DNA of 64,000 bases. Source: Escherichia coli. GTDB taxonomy: Bacteria; Pseudomonadota; Gammaproteobacteria; Enterobacterales; Enterobacteriaceae. This document shows, piece by piece, positions 1 to 11,732 of the stretch. The position numbers and the translations under genes are program-made. The DNA is taken from NCBI RefSeq assembly GCF_044324785.1, contig NZ_CP172127.1, one strand, 5' to 3'. How positions within the stretch are numbered: position 1 is the first letter of the stretch; every line of letters begins with the position of its first letter. The notes beneath the pieces were generated by a model. It was not told the DNA's origin, searched no databases, and saw nothing but the letters and a program-made list of their open reading frames with translations.

Positions 1-1
1 A

Positions 2-682
2 ACGCGCGAGCAACGCTGGAAATACCTTTCCACTGCCAAACTAAAAGCCGCGCCGGGCAGCCAGGCCGCGTACTCCAACCTCGCATTCGATCTGCTGGCA
101 GATGCACTGGCGAATGCGTCCGGCAAGCCTTATACCCAGTTGTTTGAAGAGCAGATTACCCGTCCATTGGGGATGAAAGACACCACCTACACCCCCTCGC
201 CGGATCAGTGCCGCCGTTTAATGGTTGCTGAGCGCGGTGCCAGTCCGTGCAATAACACGCTGGCGGCAATTGGCAGCGGCGGAGTCTATTCCACGCCTGG
301 CGATATGATGCGCTGGATGCAGCAGTATTTGTCATCTGATTTTTATCAGCGCAGTAACCAGGCAGATCGCATGCAGACGTTGATTTATCAGCGAGCGCAG
401 TTTACAAAAGTGATTGGCATGGATGTCCCCGGCAAAGCGGATGCGCTTGGTTTAGGCTGGGTATATATGGCCCCGAAAGAGGGTCGTCCAGGGATTATTC
501 AGAAGACAGGTGGTGGTGGCGGTTTCATTACCTATATGGCGATGATCCCGCAGAAGAACATTGGCGCATTTGTGGTGGTCACTCGTTCGCCATTGACGCG
601 CTTTAAAAATATGAGCGATGGCATCAATGACCTGGTGACCGAACTGAGCGGGAATAAACCGTTGGTCATCCCCGCGTCCTGA
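2..682 (+). CDS. ampH: Penicillin-binding protein AmpH, C-terminal part (5' end lies outside the window)
   Basis: Open frame runs from the window edge to TGA at 680-682; position relative to yaiV/yaiT matches K-12 synteny. Identity rests mainly on synteny. Confidence 0.7.
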   Translation, partial: TREQRWKYLSTAKLKAAPGSQAAYSNLAFDLLADALANASGKPYTQLFEEQITRPLGMKDTTYTPSPDQCRRLMVAERGASPCNNTLAAIGSGGVYSTPGDMMRWMQQYLSSDFYQRSNQADRMQTLIYQRAQFTKVIGMDVPGKADALGLGWVYMAPKEGRPGIIQKTGGGGGFITYMAMIPQKNIGAFVVVTRSPLTRFKNMSDGINDLVTELSGNKPLVIPAS

Positions 683-1365
<683 letters not shown>

Positions 1366-1379
1366 AACCTATTTCTTCA

Positions 1380-4301
<2,922 letters not shown>

Positions 4302-4452
4302 TTGTCATCCCTCCTCAGGGACGTAATAAGTTGATCCATCAATTATCAATGCATAGAAAACATATTATGTTTCGCGTTGACGATTATGCGGCGTTATAGA
4401 GGAATGGTTCAATTATTCTTTCCCCTAAGTCCGATTGCGGACATATATAAAG

Positions 4453-5647
<1,195 letters not shown>

Positions 5648-6025
5648 AAAGCACGTGAACACACACACAGAAAGAAATAACAAAAACACAATATTTCAAT
5701 ACGTTAATGAAAGCGTTAATTTTAAAACATAGACCATGAAAATATAAAACAACCATAACAGACAAATAATGTATCAATAAGCAATGAACTTTAAGTTATT
5801 CACTTTTTGAAAACGTCACCAAATCCCCAAAAACAATAATCTATGGCTATAAATAAAAATTAAAAATATTTTCAATGAATATAAATTTATTGCTATTTCT
5901 ATTACAAAGATGTCCTGGCCTCTCTTTCATTCTCTTCTTGTCAACATCGCGACAACTTTCGTAAAACATCCCCACCCTGCTTCAGGTATACTATGCCCCT
6001 CGATTCCACAAACATCAGGCAGACC

Positions 6026-7000
6026 ATGACAGACTTAATCCAACGCCCTCGTCGCCTGCGCAAATCTCCTGCGCTGCGCGCTATGTTTGAAGAGACAACA
6101 CTTAGCCTTAACGACCTGGTGTTGCCGATCTTTGTTGAAGAAGAAATTGACGACTACAAAGCCGTTGAAGCCATGCCAGGCGTGATGCGCATTCCTGAGA
6201 AACATCTGGCACGCGAAATTGAACGCATCGCCAACGCCGGTATTCGTTCCGTGATGACTTTCGGCATCTCTCACCATACCGATGAAACCGGCAGCGACGC
6301 CTGGCGGGAAGATGGACTGGTGGCGCGTATGTCGCGCATCTGCAAGCAGACTGTGCCAGAAATGATCGTCATGTCAGACACTTGTTTCTGTGAATACACT
6401 TCTCACGGTCACTGCGGTGTGCTGTGCGAGCATGGCGTCGACAACGACGCGACTCTGGAAAATTTAGGCAAGCAAGCCGTGGTTGCAGCTGCTGCAGGCG
6501 CAGACTTCATCGCCCCTTCCGCCGCGATGGACGGCCAGGTACAGGCAATTCGCCAGGCGCTGGACGCTGCGGGCTTTAAAGACACGGCGATTATGTCGTA
6601 TTCGACCAAGTTCGCCTCCTCCTTTTATGGCCCGTTCCGTGAAGCTGCCGGCAGCGCATTAAAAGGCGACCGCAAAAGCTATCAGATGAACCCAATGAAC
6701 CGTCGTGAGGCGATTCGTGAGTCACTGCTGGATGAAGCCCAGGGCGCAGACTGCCTGATGGTTAAACCTGCTGGAGCGTACCTCGACATCGTGCGTGAGC
6801 TGCGTGAACGTACTGAATTGCCGATTGGCGCGTATCAGGTGAGCGGTGAGTACGCGATGATTAAGTTCGCCGCGCTGGCGGGTGCTATAGATGAAGAGAA
6901 AGTCGTGCTCGAAAGCTTAGGTTCGATTAAGCGTGCGGGTGCGGATCTGATTTTCAGCTACTTTGCGCTGGATTTGGCTGAGAAGAAGATTCTGCGTTAA
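6026..7000 (+). CDS. hemB: Porphobilinogen synthase (delta-aminolevulinate dehydratase), 324 aa
   Basis: Protein [27 protein letters not shown]… recognised as HemB. Start placed at ATG 6026 rather than the ORF-track start 5993, giving 324 aa. Confidence 0.9.
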
Positions 7001-7008
7001 TGTTCATT

Positions 7009-7032
7009 ATGCCGGGTTATCCAACCCGGCAT
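7009..7032. terminator. Hairpin between convergent hemB and tauD (possible bidirectional terminator)
   Basis: Perfect inverted repeat ATGCCGGGTT / AACCCGGCAT with 4-nt loop, followed by TTCCCCC; no clean U-tract. Confidence 0.4.
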
Positions 7033-7039
7033 TTCCCCC

Positions 7040-7891
7040 TTACCCCGCCCGATAAAACGGTTTATCCCCAAGGATCGTCGCCCGATGCATTATCCGCCGC
7101 TGTGGCAGGTAATCCGCATTGGCATAGTGCTGGGTTACGCGGTTATCCCAAATCGCAATATCATTTGGTTGCCAGCGCCAGCGCACCTGAAACTCCGGTT
7201 TGGTGATGTGGGCAAACAAAAAACCTAACAAGGCTTCGCTCTCTTTCTCGCTGACATCAACAATTCGCGTGGTAAAGCCTTCATTCACAAACAGCGCCTG
7301 TTTACCGCTCACCGGATGCGTTCGCACCACCGGATGTAGCAACGGCGGATTTTTCGCGACCGCCTCGCGCCAGCGTTGATGCTCCTCCTCCGTTTTGCGG
7401 TATTTGTATTCCGGGAACGATTTACGGAAATCATGCTCCGCACGCAGCCCGCTCAACAGCTGGCGGAAGGGAACAGAGAGCGCCTCATAGGCCGCAATGC
7501 CGCTGGTCCAGAGCGTATCGCCGCCGGTTGAGGGTAACTCTTTCGCCGCCAGAATCGCCCCAGCAGGAGGCGTTTCAATAAATGTCACATCGGTATGCCA
7601 GTTGTCGTTATCCGGCGGATTATCGTTATGAGTATCCAGTACGATAATCTCGTCAACCCCTTCGGCATGAGGGTAAACAGGATGAATATGCAGTTCGCCA
7701 AAACGTTGGGCCAGCGCGCGTTGCTGCTGCGGCGTAATGGCCTGTTCACGCAGAAACACCACCTGATGGCGCAGTACCGCATGGTAAAGCTGTTCAAACT
7801 GGTTATCACTTAACGGGCGCGTCAGGTCAGCACCCGTAATTTGTGCGCCAATATACGGCCCCAGCGGGGTAATGCTCAGACGTTCACTCAT
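7040..7891 (-). CDS. tauD: Taurine dioxygenase (alpha-ketoglutarate dependent), 283 aa
   Basis: Recognised by sequence; last gene of the tauABCD operon. Confidence 0.9.
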
Positions 7892-8715
7892 TGTACTTCT
7901 CCATGCCAGGGCGTCAGGCGGCGCTGTAACGCGCGCAGACCCAGTTCTAAAAGAAAGGCGATAATCGCAATCACCGCGATCCCCGCCAGCACCACGTCAG
8001 TCGCGAGAAATTCACCCGCTGACTGAACCATAAATCCTAAACCGCGCGTCGCGGCAATCAGCTCCGCCGCCACCAGCGTAGACCAGCCCACACCCAGACC
8101 AATACGTAATCCGGTGAGGATTTCCGGCAGCGCGCCGGGCAAAATGACAAACCACAGCACCTGCGCACGGCTGGCACCCAGAGACTGGGCGGCACGAATG
8201 CGAACCTGCTGCGCGCTTTTCACCCCCGCCAGCGCCGACATCGCCACCGGTGCAAAAATCGCTAAATAGATCAGTAAGATCTTCGAGGTTTCGCCAATAC
8301 CAAACCAGATCACCATCAGCGGCAAATAAGCCAGCGGCGGCACCGGACGATAAAGCTCGATTATCGGATCCAGAATGCCGCGCACCGTCGGGCTTAGCCC
8401 CATGGCGATCCCGACCGGAATACCGATCAACACCGCCGCGAGTAGCGCCAGCAAAATGCGCGTCAGGCTGGCGGCCAGATGCTGCCACAAGGTGGCGTCC
8501 ATAAATCCTTGAGGTCCGGCAATAGTAAGCAGTTTTGCCAGTACCTGTTGCGGCGGCGGTAAAAACAGCGGGCTAATCAGTTGCAGCGCCGCCACTGCCC
8601 ACCATACAGTGAGTAAAATCGCTAACGTGCCAATGCTTAAGGTCACCTGACGCGAGAGCGGCCAGCGCCATTTCAGCCGACGCGAATGCAGTTTTTCATT
8701 GATGAGCACACTCAT
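7888..8715 (-). CDS. tauC: Taurine ABC transporter permease, 275 aa
   Basis: Polytopic membrane protein; 4-bp overlap with tauD and tauB typical of the tau operon. Confidence 0.9.
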
Positions 8716-9491: not shown

Positions 9492-10454
9492 TTATTGCAC
9501 GAAGCGCGAGGTAACGTACTGGCTGTAATCGTTCGCTACAGCCGGGACTTTGCCCTGCTCTTTCAAAAACTGCGCGGTGTCGATGATCGCTTTGTTCACC
9601 GGTCCGATCAGTTCTGCCGTTTGCTGCTGCGGCGTCAGATAGGTATTCCCCTTCACCAGCCCCGGAACGTCACCTTCAGGCACGCCGCTTAACCGCGCCA
9701 GTTTGCTGATGTTTTCAGGCTGTTTCAGCCACGCGTCTGGGTTAGCAATGTACGGTTGCTGAGCATCGATGGCGCTTTTGGCGAACGCTTTCACGACCTC
9801 TGGATGTTTCTCGGCAAAATCTTTGCGCACCACCCAGACGTCCAGTGTCGGCGCGCCCCACAGCCCGACCTGTTCAGAATCGGTCAGCACCTTGCCGTCT
9901 TTTTCCAGGGCGTTAACCGCCGGTGCCCAGACATAAGCACCATCAATGTCTCCCCGTTGCCATGCGGCGATAATCGCGGGTGGCTGCAGGTTCACTATCT
10001 CCACTTGTCCGGGTTTTATACCCCAGTGTTTCAGCGCCGCCAGCAGGCTGTAGTGGGTGGTGGAGATAAACGGTACGGCGATGCGTTTGCCAATCAGATC
10101 TTCCGGTTTGCTGATAGTTTTCTTTACCACCAGCGCTTCGGAGTTACCCAGTTTTGACGCCAGCAAGAAGACTTCAATCGGCACCTGTTGGCTGGCTGCA
10201 ACCGCTAATGGGCTGGAACCGAGGTTGCCGATTTGCACGTCGCCTGAAGCCAGCGCCCGCACGATGCTGGCTCCGCTGTCAAACTTACGCCAGTCAACGC
10301 TCGCCCCACTCTCTTTAGCAAAGGTGTTATCAGCCTGAGCCACTTTCGCCGGTTCAGCGGAGGTTTGATAGGCCACGGTGACGTTCACCGCCTGTGCCTG
10401 AAAAGCGATGAATGCCAGTGCGGCAAGAAGTGTGTTACGCGATGAAATTGCCAT
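9492..10454 (-). CDS. tauA: Taurine ABC transporter periplasmic binding protein, 320 aa
   Basis: Start placed at ATG 10454 (MAISSRNTLLAALAFIAFQAQA signal peptide); the ORF-track start 10511 is an upstream extension. Confidence 0.85.
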   Translation of the reverse strand: MAISSRNTLLAALAFIAFQAQAVNVTVAYQTSAEPAKVAQADNTFAKESGASVDWRKFDSGASIVRALASGDVQIGNLGSSPLAVAASQQVPIEVFLLASKLGNSEALVVKKTISKPEDLIGKRIAVPFISTTHYSLLAALKHWGIKPGQVEIVNLQPPAIIAAWQRGDIDGAYVWAPAVNALEKDGKVLTDSEQVGLWGAPTLDVWVVRKDFAEKHPEVVKAFAKSAIDAQQPYIANPDAWLKQPENISKLARLSGVPEGDVPGLVKGNTYLTPQQQTAELIGPVNKAIIDTAQFLKEQGKVPAVANDYSQYVTSRFVQ

Positions 10455-11060
10455 GATTGTCTGCTCCCCTGTCTTGTTATAGGAGCAGTATTCAGGAATA
10501 AAAACATTCATTAAAAGAATTAGTCGTTATCGCACAGATGATTTTATTCTTAGCAAAAAAGCGGCAAAGGAAAGATTAAATATGCAATTACACCCACTCT
10601 GACAATTCAGTAAGTTACTGCACTTCATTTTATTAATGCATAAACAAGCAGATTATAATGTCTTTTATTTTATTAACAGCAATACATATAATGAAACCAT
10701 CATATTCACATCGCATATATAACTGTGTCATTCTCAATCAACCACATAATATATTCACATCATGTATATAATCCATATTTGCGCATAGAACATATTTTTA
10801 AATGTAATTAATTGACAAACTAAATCACATCTAAATACAATATATAAAACAAAATAACTATACAAACCAAACACACAAACACTTAACATATGAACTACAT
10901 AAAAGATTACGCAGTCGTATCCACGTACCTGAAAGCCCCTTATTTTTCAGCTATCAGTAATTTTTAACACTTAAATATTAGCATCTATCTGCGCCAGAGA
11001 TTACGTCTCTGCGGGCATCGTTGTGCTTGTAGTATAATAAATAAAATGGAGTGTCATTAA

Positions 11061-11732
11061 GTGGATAAGGTTTTAGATTCAGCCATCCTTTCTTCAGCAA
11101 ATAAAAGAAAGGGTATCCTTGCTATTGGCGCACATCCTGACGATATAGAATTGGGCTGTGGCGCGTCGCTCGCTCGTCTTGCAAAAAAAGGGTTCTATAT
11201 TGCAGCGGTAGTGATGACATCGGGTAATTCCGGCGTGAGTGAAATAATTAATCGACATCAGGAATCACTCGAAGCATTAAACATTTTGGGGTGTCAACAA
11301 ACTATTCATTTTAATTTTGCTGACACCCGTACTCATTTACAACTTAATGATATGATTTCCGCTCTGGAAGATGTCCTTAAAAAACAAATTCCGTCTGATG
11401 TAGAAATCATTCGTGTATACACCATGCATGATGCTGACCGCCATCAGGATCATCTTGCAGTCTATCAAGCCTCAATGGTTGCCTGTCGCGCTATTCCGCA
11501 AATTCTCGGCTATGAAACGCCAAGTACCTGGCTTTCATTTATGCCACAGGTTTTTGAATCCGTGGAAGAGGAATATTTCACCATTAAACTGGCTGCATTA
11601 AAACAGCATAAGAGCCAGGGCCATCGTGATTATATGCGCCCGGATCGCCTGCGTGCAGTTGCACAATTTCGCGGGCAACAGGTCAATAGCGATCTGGGTG
11701 AAGGCTTTGTAATTCATAAAATGATTCTTTGA
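11061..11732 (+). CDS. yaiS: LmbE/PIG-L-family putative N-acetylglucosaminyl deacetylase, 223 aa
   Basis: Motif AIGAHPDDIELGCG near N-terminus; GTG start at 11061 is the only in-frame start before the domain; TATAAT at 11033-11038 and GGAG at 11047-11050 upstream. Confidence 0.75.
   Translation: MDKVLDSAILSSANKRKGILAIGAHPDDIELGCGASLARLAKKGFYIAAVVMTSGNSGVSEIINRHQESLEALNILGCQQTIHFNFADTRTHLQLNDMISALEDVLKKQIPSDVEIIRVYTMHDADRHQDHLAVYQASMVACRAIPQILGYETPSTWLSFMPQVFESVEEEYFTIKLAALKQHKSQGHRDYMRPDRLRAVAQFRGQQVNSDLGEGFVIHKMIL

What the first reader, a model, noticed from the sequence alone, without database searches (positions are those of the whole stretch)
10512..11060. 550-bp AT-rich divergent region between tauA and yaiS with a repeated ATATTCACATC motif
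The spacer is much more AT-rich than the flanking genes and low in complexity (ACA/CAT runs). An exact 11-bp motif ATATTCACATC occurs twice about 40 bp apart (near 10711 and 10751), with a related AAATCACATC about 70 bp further on. A consensus TATAAT (11033-11038) lies just upstream of yaiS. The arrangement suggests repeated regulator binding sites and possibly H-NS silencing of the yaiS operon; it could equally be part of the sulfur-starvation control of tauA.
Basis: seen in the sequence. Interest (0 to 1): 0.4.

Follow-up and report, generated by a model that had tools for sequence, protein, structure and literature searches.

The report
AT-rich H-NS-bound tauA–yaiS spacer
The AT-rich DNA between the E. 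coli taurine-uptake operon and the yaiS gene cluster is real, but it is an already catalogued H-NS-bound "promoter island", and the repeated 11-base motif in it is a strain-private, near-chance feature rather than a demonstrable regulator site.

Summary
The window is E. coli. The gene calls are right: tauA on the minus strand, yaiS on the plus strand. The spacer is 606 bp (10455-11060), not 550 bp, because the annotated tauA start is at 10454. It has 30.5% GC against 51.9% for the window.

The exact 11-mer ATATTCACATC does occur twice, at 10702 and 10751. However:
- 16% of composition-matched shuffles of the spacer contain an exact repeat at least that long.
- The exact pair depends on SNPs seen in none of 5,426 complete E. 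coli genomes.
- Other alleles share only a looser core, ATTCACAT-N4-TATATAA.
- The motif is absent upstream of the one non-E. coli yaiS orthologue (Citrobacter), from O157-type tauA upstream regions, and from the ssuE control region, which is also Cbl-dependent.

The K-12 counterpart of 10609-10906 is published as one of 78 "promoter islands". It is listed as H-NS-bound in all ChIP-chip studies compared and as associated with foreign genes. Genomic SELEX places RNA polymerase sites at TTGACA-18-TACAAT (10812-10841) and near the TATAAT at 11033.

The H-NS idea is therefore supported but already known. The repeated-operator and sulphur-control readings of the motif are not supported. Interest is low.

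The parts
9492..10454 (-). tauA coding sequence (taurine ABC transporter substrate-binding protein). The annotated ATG is at 10454-10452.
   Evidence: RefSeq annotation of strains N3 and K-12 mapped onto the window. The mechanical ORF runs on to 10511.
10476..10481 (-). Candidate tauA -10 hexamer: TATAAC here, in N3, 5283 and SJC33; CATAAC in the other alleles. The transcription start inferred from it is about 10468-10470.
   Evidence: Read from the sequence and alignment A3. This is an inference; no start-site data were available.
10511..10570 (-). tauA-proximal activator region. Blocks TTAAAAGAATTA (10511-10522) and TTAGCAAAAAAGCGGCAAAGG (10550-10570) are the only upstream stretches also kept in the deeply diverged O157-type allele. 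This is the presumed Cbl/CysB binding region.
   Evidence: Alignment A2. In A3, 95% of columns are invariant in 10455-10549. The Cbl footprint at -112 to -68 is recalled from van der Ploeg et al. 1997, which was not re-read.
10609..10906 (.). AT-rich core (75.5% AT, TpA 0.141). It is the counterpart of the published K-12 'promoter island' 383994-384302, which is H-NS-bound in published ChIP-chip data.
   Evidence: Coordinate mapping through alignment A1. PMC3661553 Table 1. Composition.
10699..10722 (+). Repeat copy 1, ATCATATTCACATCGCATATATAA. The consensus of the other alleles is ATTATATTCACATTGCATATATAA.
10748..10771 (+). Repeat copy 2, AATATATTCACATCATGTATATAA. It contains a perfect TATAAT at 10767-10772.
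10812..10841 (+). Near-consensus sigma-70 promoter TTGACA-18-TACAAT facing yaiS. The third, related motif AAATCACATC (10822-10831) is simply its spacer. The promoter is conserved in all 10 alleles.
   Evidence: Promoter scan, 11 of 12 matches. The same hexamers are listed for yaiS in the RpoD genomic SELEX table (PMC3946193). Alignment A3.
10842..10889 (+). G-free, CA-rich 48-nt tract (A29 C11 G0 T8) just downstream of that promoter. It lies in the best conserved central block (10800-10889, 90% invariant columns).
   Evidence: (GC skew -0.6).
10890..10967 (+). 25-codon ORF (MNYIKDYAVVSTYLKAPYFSAISNF), open in all 10 alleles. It has no Shine-Dalgarno sequence and the peptide sequence is not conserved.
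10995..11011 (.). Conserved palindrome CAGAGA-TTACG-TCTCTG, about 22 bp upstream of the proximal -10 hexamer.
   Evidence: Read from the sequence. Conserved in A1 and A3.
11033..11038 (+). Consensus TATAAT with no recognisable -35 hexamer, in a block invariant across alleles. The RpoS-holoenzyme genomic SELEX peak (K-12 383868) maps here.
   Evidence: PMC5493296.
11061..11732 (+). yaiS (PIG-L/LmbE-family deacetylase). It starts at GTG, with GGAG at 11048-11051. It is an intact 223 aa here and is followed by yaiP, an acetyltransferase gene and yaiO.

Best explanation
This is the shared control region of two divergent transcription units. It is built of three modules.

(1) tauA-proximal module, about 150 bp (10455 to about 10600). 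It is conserved and carries the activator-dependent tauA promoter and its Cbl/CysB sites. This module alone accounts for sulphate-starvation control.

(2) AT-rich, TpA-rich core, about 300-400 bp (about 10600-10990). It belongs to the horizontally acquired yaiS-yaiP-acetyltransferase-yaiO cluster. It behaves as a 'promoter island': many -10-like hexamers arise simply from the base composition, RNA polymerase binds in vitro, and H-NS coats the tract in vivo. The result is that the yaiS-side promoters are kept silent or nearly so. Those promoters are the near-consensus TTGACA-18-TACAAT at 10812-10841 and the proximal TATAAT at 11033.

(3) yaiS-proximal module (10990-11060), invariant across alleles, with a palindrome, a -10 hexamer and a Shine-Dalgarno sequence.

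The repeated ATATTCACATC is low-complexity TA-rich sequence inside module 2. Each copy is a cluster of -10-like hexamers on both strands. An old, loose 24-nt similarity (18/24) exists in all alleles. It looks like an exact 11-mer here only because of two private substitutions to C, at 10712 and 10761.

Shown here: the anatomy, the composition, the conservation pattern, the strain-private nature of the exact repeat, and its chance level.
Taken from the literature on the K-12 allele (88.8% identical): H-NS occupancy and RNA polymerase binding in vitro.
Inferred: silencing of yaiS in this strain, the position of the tauA start, and the positions of the Cbl/CysB sites.
For: - The flanks are annotated tauA and PIG-L deacetylase (yaiS) in near-identical E. 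coli records.
- Spacer GC is 30.5% against 51.9% for the window. TpA frequency is 0.119, against a tile mean of 0.044 and a tile maximum of 0.098. It is the longest AT-rich tract in the window.
- The K-12 counterpart is a listed promoter island, H-NS-bound in all ChIP-chip studies compared and linked to predicted foreign genes (PMC3661553; mapped).
- Genomic SELEX lists yaiS TTGACA-18-TACAAT, 'HNS', and tauA TTGAGA-16-TACAAT in this spacer (PMC3946193). An RpoS-holoenzyme peak maps to window 11033 (PMC5493296).
- There are 19 -10-like hexamers in the spacer against a mean of 3.3 in other 606-bp tiles. Shuffles of the spacer give 20.3, so this is a composition effect.
- Foreign origin of the yaiS side: the only close yaiS relative found among the representative genomes of 100,044 species is one Citrobacter, at 78%. 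About 22% of complete E. coli genomes lack the region. O157:H7 carries a different gene set there, with a 44%-GC spacer.
- The exact repeat is not special. A repeat of 11 nt or more arises in 16% of shuffles. The 91-bp segment has no match above 95.6% in 5,426 genomes. The other nine alleles share only ATTCACAT or shorter words between the two copies.
- Conservation peaks at 10455-10549 (95% invariant columns), 10800-10889 (90%) and 10990-11048 (88%). The stretches 10600-10699 and 10700-10799 have 67% and 76%.
Against: - H-NS binding, RNA polymerase binding and silencing were not measured in this strain. They rest on data for the K-12 allele, which is only 74-82% identical across 10600-10799.
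- The core columns of the repeat (ATTCACAT plus TATATAA, both copies) are invariant at 27 of 30 positions, against 105 of 152 in the surrounding 10600-10799. All ten alleles keep 18/24 identity between the copies. This is a weak hint of constraint that a pure by-product model does not predict.
- -35/-10 pairs are fewer than composition predicts: 4 against 10.7 in shuffles. By my simple scan, therefore, the 'island of promoters' label is not supported beyond AT-richness.
- Only one 2-mismatch match to the H-NS high-affinity motif TCGATAAATT lies in the spacer.
- The primary tauA footprinting paper could not be read.
Confidence: 0.72

Rival explanations
1. The two (or three) ATTCACAT-N4-TATATAA elements are operators for a sequence-specific regulator, such as an anti-silencer or repressor, of the yaiS-yaiO cluster. 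The regulator has not yet been identified.
For: - The degenerate 21-24-nt repeat is marginally beyond chance (1.8% and 3.6% of shuffles).
- The loose repeat is present in all ten alleles at 18/24 identity, so it predates the divergence of the alleles.
- The core columns are invariant at 27 of 30 positions, against 69% of the neighbouring columns.
Against: - The exact 11-mer is private to this strain and within chance.
- The K-12 group has ATTCGCAT...TATATCA in copy 1.
- There is no such motif upstream of the Citrobacter yaiS orthologue.
- No regulator gene lies in the cluster.
- The spacings of 49 and 71 bp are not in helical phase.
- There is no full CRP-type partner half-site next to any TCACA (read).
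- The third copy has different internal spacing and is just the spacer of a promoter.
- The conservation test was chosen after seeing the motif, and the ten alleles represent only about three lineages.
Confidence: 0.12
2. The motif copies are distal CysB sites, or sites for another LysR-type regulator, that take part in sulphate-starvation control of tauABCD.
For: - CysB is reported to occupy multiple sites upstream of tauA (van der Ploeg et al. 1997, recalled from memory, not re-read).
- CysB sites are AT-rich and poorly defined.
- Genomic SELEX proposed a tauA-directed promoter, TTGAGA-16-TACAAT, that overlaps copy 1 in K-12 (PMC3946193).
Against: - The motif lies about 230-290 bp upstream of the inferred tauA start, well outside the recalled Cbl footprint at -112 to -68.
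- O157-type genomes have lost everything beyond about 10600 but keep the proximal blocks 10511-10522 and 10550-10570.
- No ATTCACAT with one mismatch or fewer occurs in the ssuE-elfA control region, which is also Cbl/CysB-dependent.
- The tauA-proximal 100 bp are 95% invariant, whereas the motif region is among the more variable.
- In this strain the K-12 TACAAT is TGCGAT.
Confidence: 0.06
3. The functional element in the centre of the spacer is not the repeat. It is a long regulatory leader for yaiS. The conserved promoter at 10812-10841 would give a transcript that starts with a G-free, C-rich, rut-like tract (10842-10889), followed by a 25-codon upstream ORF (10890-10967). Translation of that ORF would gate Rho-dependent termination ahead of yaiS.
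For: - 10800-10889 is the best conserved central block, with 90% invariant columns.
- The promoter matches the consensus at 11 of 12 positions.
- The 48-nt tract has no G, and GC skew is -0.6.
- The ORF is open in 10 of 10 alleles. In the K-12 group this is through a +1/-1 pair of indels.
Against: - The ORF has no Shine-Dalgarno sequence, and its peptide sequence is not conserved.
- One allele (GPEC1035) is frameshifted yet still open, which shows that the region is poor in stop codons in two frames. Openness is therefore largely compositional.
- By a rough estimate, a 25-codon open frame has a chance of about 10% at this composition.
- No transcript, start-site or ribosome data were available.
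- Rfam finds nothing here.
Confidence: 0.08

Closest known systems
E. coli 'promoter islands' (Shavkunov et al. 2009; Panyukov & Ozoline 2013, PMC3661553), specifically island 383994_309 yaiS(-)/tauA(+)
   Same: It is the same locus in another E. coli strain: window 10609-10906 aligns to K-12 383994-384302. It is AT-rich and dense in -10-like hexamers relative to ordinary DNA. It lies next to horizontally acquired genes. The published record lists it as H-NS-bound.
   Different: The allele here is only 74-82% identical to K-12 across 10600-10799. By my simple scan the promoter-like density does not exceed what the base composition gives, and full -35/-10 pairs are under-represented.
H-NS xenogeneic silencing of AT-rich horizontally acquired DNA
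   Same: Low GC, a high frequency of TpA steps, a patchy distribution of the gene cluster among strains and species, and decay of yaiS in many strains.
   Different: No occupancy or derepression data exist for this strain. The high-affinity nucleation motif is barely represented, with one 2-mismatch hit at 10806-10815.
Cbl/CysB (LysR-type) activation of tauABCD and ssuEADCB under sulphate starvation
   Same: The tauA-proximal 150 bp are conserved. They retain two blocks even in the deeply diverged O157-type allele, at the distance expected for the Cbl site.
   Different: It is missing from O157-type tauA upstream regions and from the ssuE control region.
Iterated operator arrays (repeated regulator sites in divergent control regions)
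   Same: There are two to three direct copies of a short word within 130 bp of a divergent spacer.
   Different: The copies are only 75-79% alike over 24 nt. The exact word is strain-private. The spacing is irregular. No cognate regulator is known, and there is no counterpart at the orthologous Citrobacter locus.

Membership tests
Promoter island (Panyukov & Ozoline) | A stretch of 300 bp or more with an exceptionally high density of promoter-like signals or potential start points | tested here: inconclusive
   There are 19 -10-like hexamers against a mean of 3.3 in other 606-bp tiles, the highest in the window. Shuffles of the spacer give 20.3, and -35/-10 pairs number 4 against 10.7 in shuffles. 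The original PlatProm scoring was not available. The K-12 orthologue is on the published list.
Promoter island (Panyukov & Ozoline) | Association with horizontally acquired genes | tested here: met
   The yaiS cluster has 38-47% GC. About 22% of E. coli genomes lack it. In O157 it is replaced by other genes. The only close relative outside E. coli is one Citrobacter.
Promoter island (Panyukov & Ozoline) | RNA polymerase binds but full-length transcription is low; H-NS occupancy in vivo | not testable with these tools
   Literature on K-12 only: H-NS 'according to all studies' (PMC3661553), and RpoD and RpoS holoenzyme SELEX peaks.
H-NS-silenced xenogeneic DNA | AT content well above the genome average, with frequent TpA steps, over hundreds of bp | tested here: met
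   69.5% AT over 606 bp and 75.5% over 10609-10906. TpA frequency is 0.119-0.141 against a mean of 0.044.
H-NS-silenced xenogeneic DNA | High-affinity nucleation motif (TCGATAAATT-like) | tested here: inconclusive
   There is one 2-mismatch match in the spacer, at 10806-10815 on the - strand, overlapping the -35 hexamer. The repeat copies do not match the motif.
Cbl/CysB activator sites of the sulphate-starvation regulon | Position within the footprinted region upstream of the tauA start (Cbl at -112 to -68, from memory) | tested here: not met
   The motif at 10702-10761 lies about 230-290 bp upstream of the inferred start at about 10470. The start itself is inferred, not mapped.
Cbl/CysB activator sites of the sulphate-starvation regulon | Retained wherever tauA is retained, and shared with the other Cbl-dependent promoter (ssuE) | tested here: not met
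   It is absent from the O157-type tauA upstream region. There is no ATTCACAT with one mismatch or fewer in the ssuE-elfA spacer.
Repeated operators for a specific regulator | The copies are more alike than chance allows in the local composition | tested here: inconclusive
   The exact 11-mer has p of about 0.16. The 18/21 match has p of about 0.018 and the 19/24 match about 0.036. No correction was made for choosing the motif after the fact.
Repeated operators for a specific regulator | The motif is conserved at orthologous loci | tested here: inconclusive
   Within E. coli, only the loose core ATTCACAT-N4-TATATAA is kept (27 of 30 columns invariant). The exact word is private to this strain. 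The motif is absent upstream of the Citrobacter orthologue.
CRP site | TGTGA-N6-TCACA dyad | tested here: not met
   Each TCACA (10706, 10755, 10825) lacks a TGTGA-like partner 6 nt upstream (read).
Sigma-54 promoter (yaiS appears in a list of sigma-54 promoters retrieved from RegulonDB, PMC3118216) | TGGCAC-N5-TTGCW upstream of yaiS on the + strand | tested here: not met
   There is no match with 3 mismatches or fewer on the + strand within 10455-11060.

The most novel reading that the evidence does not exclude
Either of two readings remains open.

(a) The loosely conserved ATTCACAT-N4-TATATAA pair is the binding site of an unidentified regulator or anti-silencer of the yaiS-yaiO cluster. The cluster appears, from its annotated products, to act on surface glycans.

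(b) The conserved central block forms a Rho/translation-gated leader that controls escape of the cluster from H-NS silencing. That block comprises the near-consensus promoter at 10812-10841, the 48-nt G-free C-rich tract, and the 25-codon ORF that is open in every allele.

The evidence excludes neither reading. The core columns of the repeat and the 10800-10889 block are both more conserved than their surroundings.
Probability: 0.12. Interest if true: 0.4.

Novelty: already known. Interest (0 to 1): 0.12.

Why it matters
It matters little. The locus illustrates how an AT-rich, H-NS-coated tract that arrived with foreign genes can sit directly against a well-regulated core operon without being part of that operon's control.

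It also shows how private SNPs in low-complexity DNA can create a 'motif' that looks convincing in a single genome.

If the minority reading were true, it would give a handle on when the otherwise silent and uncharacterised yaiS-yaiP-yaiX-yaiO cluster is expressed.

Tried and rejected
- Rfam scan of 10300-11300 at a permissive threshold: only a chance snoRNA hit inside yaiS. No known RNA.
- Sigma-54 consensus: no match on the yaiS strand in the spacer.
- H-NS high-affinity motif: the repeat copies do not match it.
- CRP, ArgR, Nac/LysR-box, PhoB and Fur consensus sequences, compared by eye from memory with the repeat: no convincing full site.
- Minus-strand 44-aa ORF at 10755-10889: rejected. 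It arises because that strand is G/T-rich, and a 1-nt indel at about 10806 breaks the frame in the other alleles.
- SNP clustering: 4 of the 5 window-versus-N3 differences in the spacer fall in the two repeat copies. This is not remarkable, because the two strains differ by 1.5% overall.
- 30-nt inverted repeat 10621-10650 / 11024-11053 as the ends of a mobile element: 22/30 complementarity is reached in 2.5% of shuffles, which is marginal, and there are no multiple copies in genomes.
- Primary tauA promoter paper (PMID 9401024 / PMC179728): not held. Literature searches for the tauA promoter or CysB ChIP gave nothing usable.

Full report
**What is at the coordinates**

The window is Escherichia coli. 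The 751 bases around the finding match 5,418 of 5,426 complete E. coli genomes, and 4,251 of them hold a match covering at least 80% of the query. The best match is strain N3 at 99.3%.

RefSeq annotation of N3 and K-12 W3110, mapped onto the window, gives this layout:
- tauD-tauC-tauB-tauA on the minus strand.
- On the plus strand, a PIG-L-family deacetylase (yaiS), the glycosyltransferase gene yaiP, an acetyltransferase gene (yaiX in K-12) and yaiO.

The left boundary is not. 10511 is only the end of the longest mechanical ORF. The annotated tauA ATG is at 10454-10452. The spacer is therefore 10455-11060, which is 606 bp.

Composition:
- GC is 30.5% over the spacer, 25-30% in 200-bp windows across 10500-10999, and 51.9% for the window as a whole.
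- TpA steps run at 0.119, against a tile mean of 0.044.
- It is the longest AT-rich tract in the window.

**The motif**

ATATTCACATC occurs exactly twice in the window, at 10702-10712 and 10751-10761. The copies are 49 bp apart start to start. The similarity extends to 18/21 and 19/24 matches. AAATCACATC is at 10822-10831. TATAAT is at 11033-11038, but it is one of four on that strand.

*Is it more than chance?*
- Against shuffles of the whole 52%-GC window, this word is unexpected.
- That is the wrong null for a motif noticed after the fact in a 30%-GC tract.
- In 2,000 dinucleotide-preserving shuffles of the spacer itself, 16% contain an exact non-overlapping repeat of 11 nt or more.
- The 18/21 match is reached in 1.8% of shuffles and the 19/24 match in 3.6%.
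- The exact 11-mer is unremarkable. The longer loose repeat is marginal.

*Is it conserved?* I aligned ten E. coli alleles: window, N3, 5283, SJC33, GPEC1035, ChlosBP-23-1, UTI89, K-12, O26 RM10386 and EC2341.
- Every allele keeps 18/24 identity between the two copies, so the loose repeat is old.
- The longest word shared by the two copies is the 11-mer only in the window. Elsewhere it is 8 or 9 nt: ATTCACAT, TATTCACAT or TATATTCA in six alleles, and an off-register TGTATATA in the three K-12-group alleles.
- The C at 10712 and the C at 10761, which create the exact match, are private. The 91-bp segment 10690-10780 has no match above 95.6% in 5,426 complete genomes.
- What is shared is ATTCACAT-N4-TATATAA. 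The K-12 group has ATTCGCAT...TATATCA in copy 1.
- Those core columns are invariant at 27 of 30 positions, against 105 of 152 in the rest of 10600-10799. This is a weak, post hoc hint of constraint, drawn from about three independent lineages.

*Orthologous loci outside these alleles*
- A scan of representative genomes of 100,044 species with the YaiS protein found one close relative, Citrobacter sp. FP75, at 78%.
- There the same four-gene cluster sits in a different neighbourhood. It lies behind a 412-bp, 35%-GC spacer with no ATTCACAT, TCACAT or TATAAT.
- O157:H7-type genomes carry a response regulator, a histidine kinase and uhpC in place of the yaiS cluster.
- Their tauA upstream region has 44% GC. 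It shares with the window only the first ~38 bp upstream of the ATG plus two blocks, 10511-10522 and 10550-10570.
- tauA therefore exists without the AT-rich tract and without the motif.
- The ssuE-elfA control region of K-12, the other Cbl-dependent operon, has no ATTCACAT with one mismatch or fewer.

**What the region is**

The literature already describes it.
- Panyukov & Ozoline (PMC3661553, Table 1) list 383994_309, yaiS(-)/tauA(+), among 78 'promoter islands' of K-12.
- They mark it as associated with foreign genes by three predictors and as H-NS-bound 'according to all studies' (Grainger, Kahramanoglou, Oshima).
- Through alignment A1, that interval maps to window 10609-10906. The motif copies lie in its centre.
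- Shimada et al. (PMC3946193) list this spacer among constitutive RpoD-holoenzyme SELEX sites. They give yaiS TTGACA-18-TACAAT, an 'HNS' flag, and tauA TTGAGA-16-TACAAT.
- The first of these is window 10812-10841, an 11-of-12 match to consensus, conserved in all ten alleles.
- The second overlaps copy 1 in K-12 but is degraded here, with TGCGAT in place of TACAAT.
- The RpoS-holoenzyme SELEX peak at K-12 383868 (PMC5493296) maps to window 11033, the proximal TATAAT.

My own counts agree with the description but temper it.
- The spacer has 19 -10-like hexamers, against a mean of 3.3 in other tiles.
- Shuffles of the spacer give 20.3.
- -35/-10 pairs are fewer than composition predicts (4 against 10.7).
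- The 'island' is therefore a composition effect.

**Conservation pattern**

Invariant columns across the ten alleles:

| Segment | Invariant columns |
|---|---|
| 10455-10549 | 95% |
| 10550-10599 | 84% |
| 10600-10699 | 67% |
| 10700-10799 | 76% |
| 10800-10889 | 90% |
| 10890-10989 | 65% |
| 10990-11048 | 88% |

Against K-12, a hyper-divergent patch runs from 10600 to 11700, at 69-94% identity in 100-bp bins. Most bins are between 79% and 92%. It covers the central spacer and yaiS itself. yaiP is 97-100% identical.

The constrained parts are therefore:
- the tauA-proximal module;
- the distal yaiS promoter with its leader;
- the yaiS-proximal module: palindrome CAGAGA-TTACG-TCTCTG at 10995-11011, TATAAT, GGAG and GTG.

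**How it most likely works**

*tauA side (inference).* The promoter is activator-dependent. The candidate -10 hexamer is TATAAC at 10481-10476, with a poor -35 hexamer. The Cbl footprint, which I recall from van der Ploeg et al. 1997 as -112 to -68, would fall at about 10538-10582. That interval contains the block 10550-10570, which is retained in O157-type alleles. I could not re-read that paper. The start site is inferred to within about 10 bp.

*yaiS side.* H-NS polymerises over the AT-rich tract and the adjoining low-GC genes. RNA polymerase can bind at 10812-10841 and 11033 but productive transcription is suppressed. This is the published behaviour of promoter islands (PMC3661553; PMC7054387; PMC11661796). 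It is inferred, not shown, for this strain.

Side evidence fits a silenced island:
- An antisense promoter inside yaiP was used as a control fusion by the Wade laboratory (PMC4666370).
- yaiP transcripts rise 2.9-fold in an rpoZ mutant (PMC5811629).

*The motif.* It is most simply TA-rich low-complexity sequence carrying -10-like hexamers on both strands.

**Rivals**

- *A specific unknown regulator binding ATTCACAT-N4-TATATAA.* Not excluded, because the core columns are somewhat more conserved and the loose repeat is old. It lacks a cognate gene, phasing, orthologue support and statistical weight. Confidence about 0.12.
- *Distal CysB sites.* Unlikely for the reasons given above, though not formally excluded without the footprints. 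Confidence about 0.06.
- *A leader model.* The near-consensus promoter would be followed by a 48-nt G-free, C-rich, rut-like tract and then a 25-codon ORF that is open in all ten alleles. This is suggested by the conservation of 10800-10889 and by the compensating +1/-1 indels in the K-12 group. Against it, the ORF has no Shine-Dalgarno sequence and no peptide conservation, and a frameshifted allele is still open. Openness is therefore largely compositional. Confidence about 0.08.

**Verdict**

The region and the two exact copies are real. The boundary and the significance are not as stated.
H-NS binding is supported, but it is already known and does not depend on the motif. The repeated-operator and sulphur-control readings are not supported.
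- Novelty: already known. Interest: 0.12.

Noticed in passing
window 10890-10967 (+): A 25-codon ORF (MNYIKDYAVVSTYLKAPYFSAISNF) starts right after a G-free leader. It is open in all 10 E. coli alleles examined. In the K-12 group, a +1/-1 pair of indels recodes the middle yet restores the same stop codon. GPEC1035 is frameshifted to 27 aa. There is no Shine-Dalgarno sequence, and the openness is probably compositional.
   Followed up: partly
window 10842-10889 (+): A 48-nt tract with no G at all (A29 C11 T8) lies immediately downstream of the near-consensus TTGACA-18-TACAAT promoter. It falls in the most conserved block of the central spacer. If transcribed, its composition is like that of a Rho-utilisation (rut) site.
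   Followed up: partly
window 10621-10650 and 11024-11053: A 30-nt imperfect inverted repeat (22/30) brackets the AT-rich core. The right arm is the invariant yaiS -10/Shine-Dalgarno block. The left arm, read towards tauA, mimics it and opens a 33-aa ORF (10628-10527, - strand). A match this good is reached in 2.5% of shuffles.
   Followed up: partly
window 10995-11011: A perfect 6-bp palindrome, CAGAGA-TTACG-TCTCTG, lies about 22 bp upstream of the proximal TATAAT. It is conserved in all alleles (the B2-type alleles have CAGAGG). It is a possible operator for the proximal yaiS promoter.
   Followed up: no
window 11061-11732; loci L001, L002, L004, L005, L007, L090-L093: yaiS is an intact 223-aa ORF here, as in Citrobacter sp. 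FP75. It is annotated as truncated (185 aa in K-12) or as a pseudogene in N3, UTI89, GPEC1035, ChlosBP-23-1, 5283, SJC33, O26 RM10386 and EC2341. The gene is decaying in many lineages.
   Followed up: partly
window 10600-11700 against K-12 (L001): A hyper-divergent patch (69-94% identity in 100-bp bins, mostly 79-92%) covers the central spacer and yaiS. yaiP is 97-100% identical and tauA mostly 94-100%. This is far above the usual divergence within E. coli. It suggests an old recombined allele, or relaxed constraint together with raised mutation.
   Followed up: partly
L003 (O157:H7 MB41-1) 4056-8093; L006 (NCTC11023) 3256-4058: The spacer is a junction of genome plasticity. O157:H7-type genomes carry a response regulator, a MASE1 histidine kinase and uhpC instead of yaiS-yaiO. 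NCTC11023 has an IS1 in the AT-rich tract with yaiS-yaiX deleted. Strain NDM5 also has an IS1 inside the spacer (H7).
   Followed up: partly
window 10480: The window, N3, 5283 and SJC33 have A here, giving a TATAAC candidate -10 hexamer for tauA. The six other alleles have G, giving CATAAC. This may be an up-promoter polymorphism.
   Followed up: no
window 5601-5900: A second strongly AT-rich tract (up to 77% AT) lies in the divergent spacer between the autotransporter gene ehaB and hemB. It is probably another H-NS-type tract.
   Followed up: no
literature: PMC3661553, Table 1: Three of the 78 published promoter islands abut sulphur-regulon genes: yaiS/tauA, ssuE/elfA and cysB/ymiA. Both Cbl-dependent operons (tau and ssu) therefore share a divergent spacer with an AT-rich tract that is listed there as H-NS-bound.
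   Followed up: partly
window 1-5650 against N3 (L088): The window and its closest complete genome are only 98.5% identical overall. They are not collinear over the ampH-iprA-ehaB segment: BLAST pieces are offset by about 1.2 kb, and 2694-4218 has no match. The ehaB region differs structurally.
   Followed up: no
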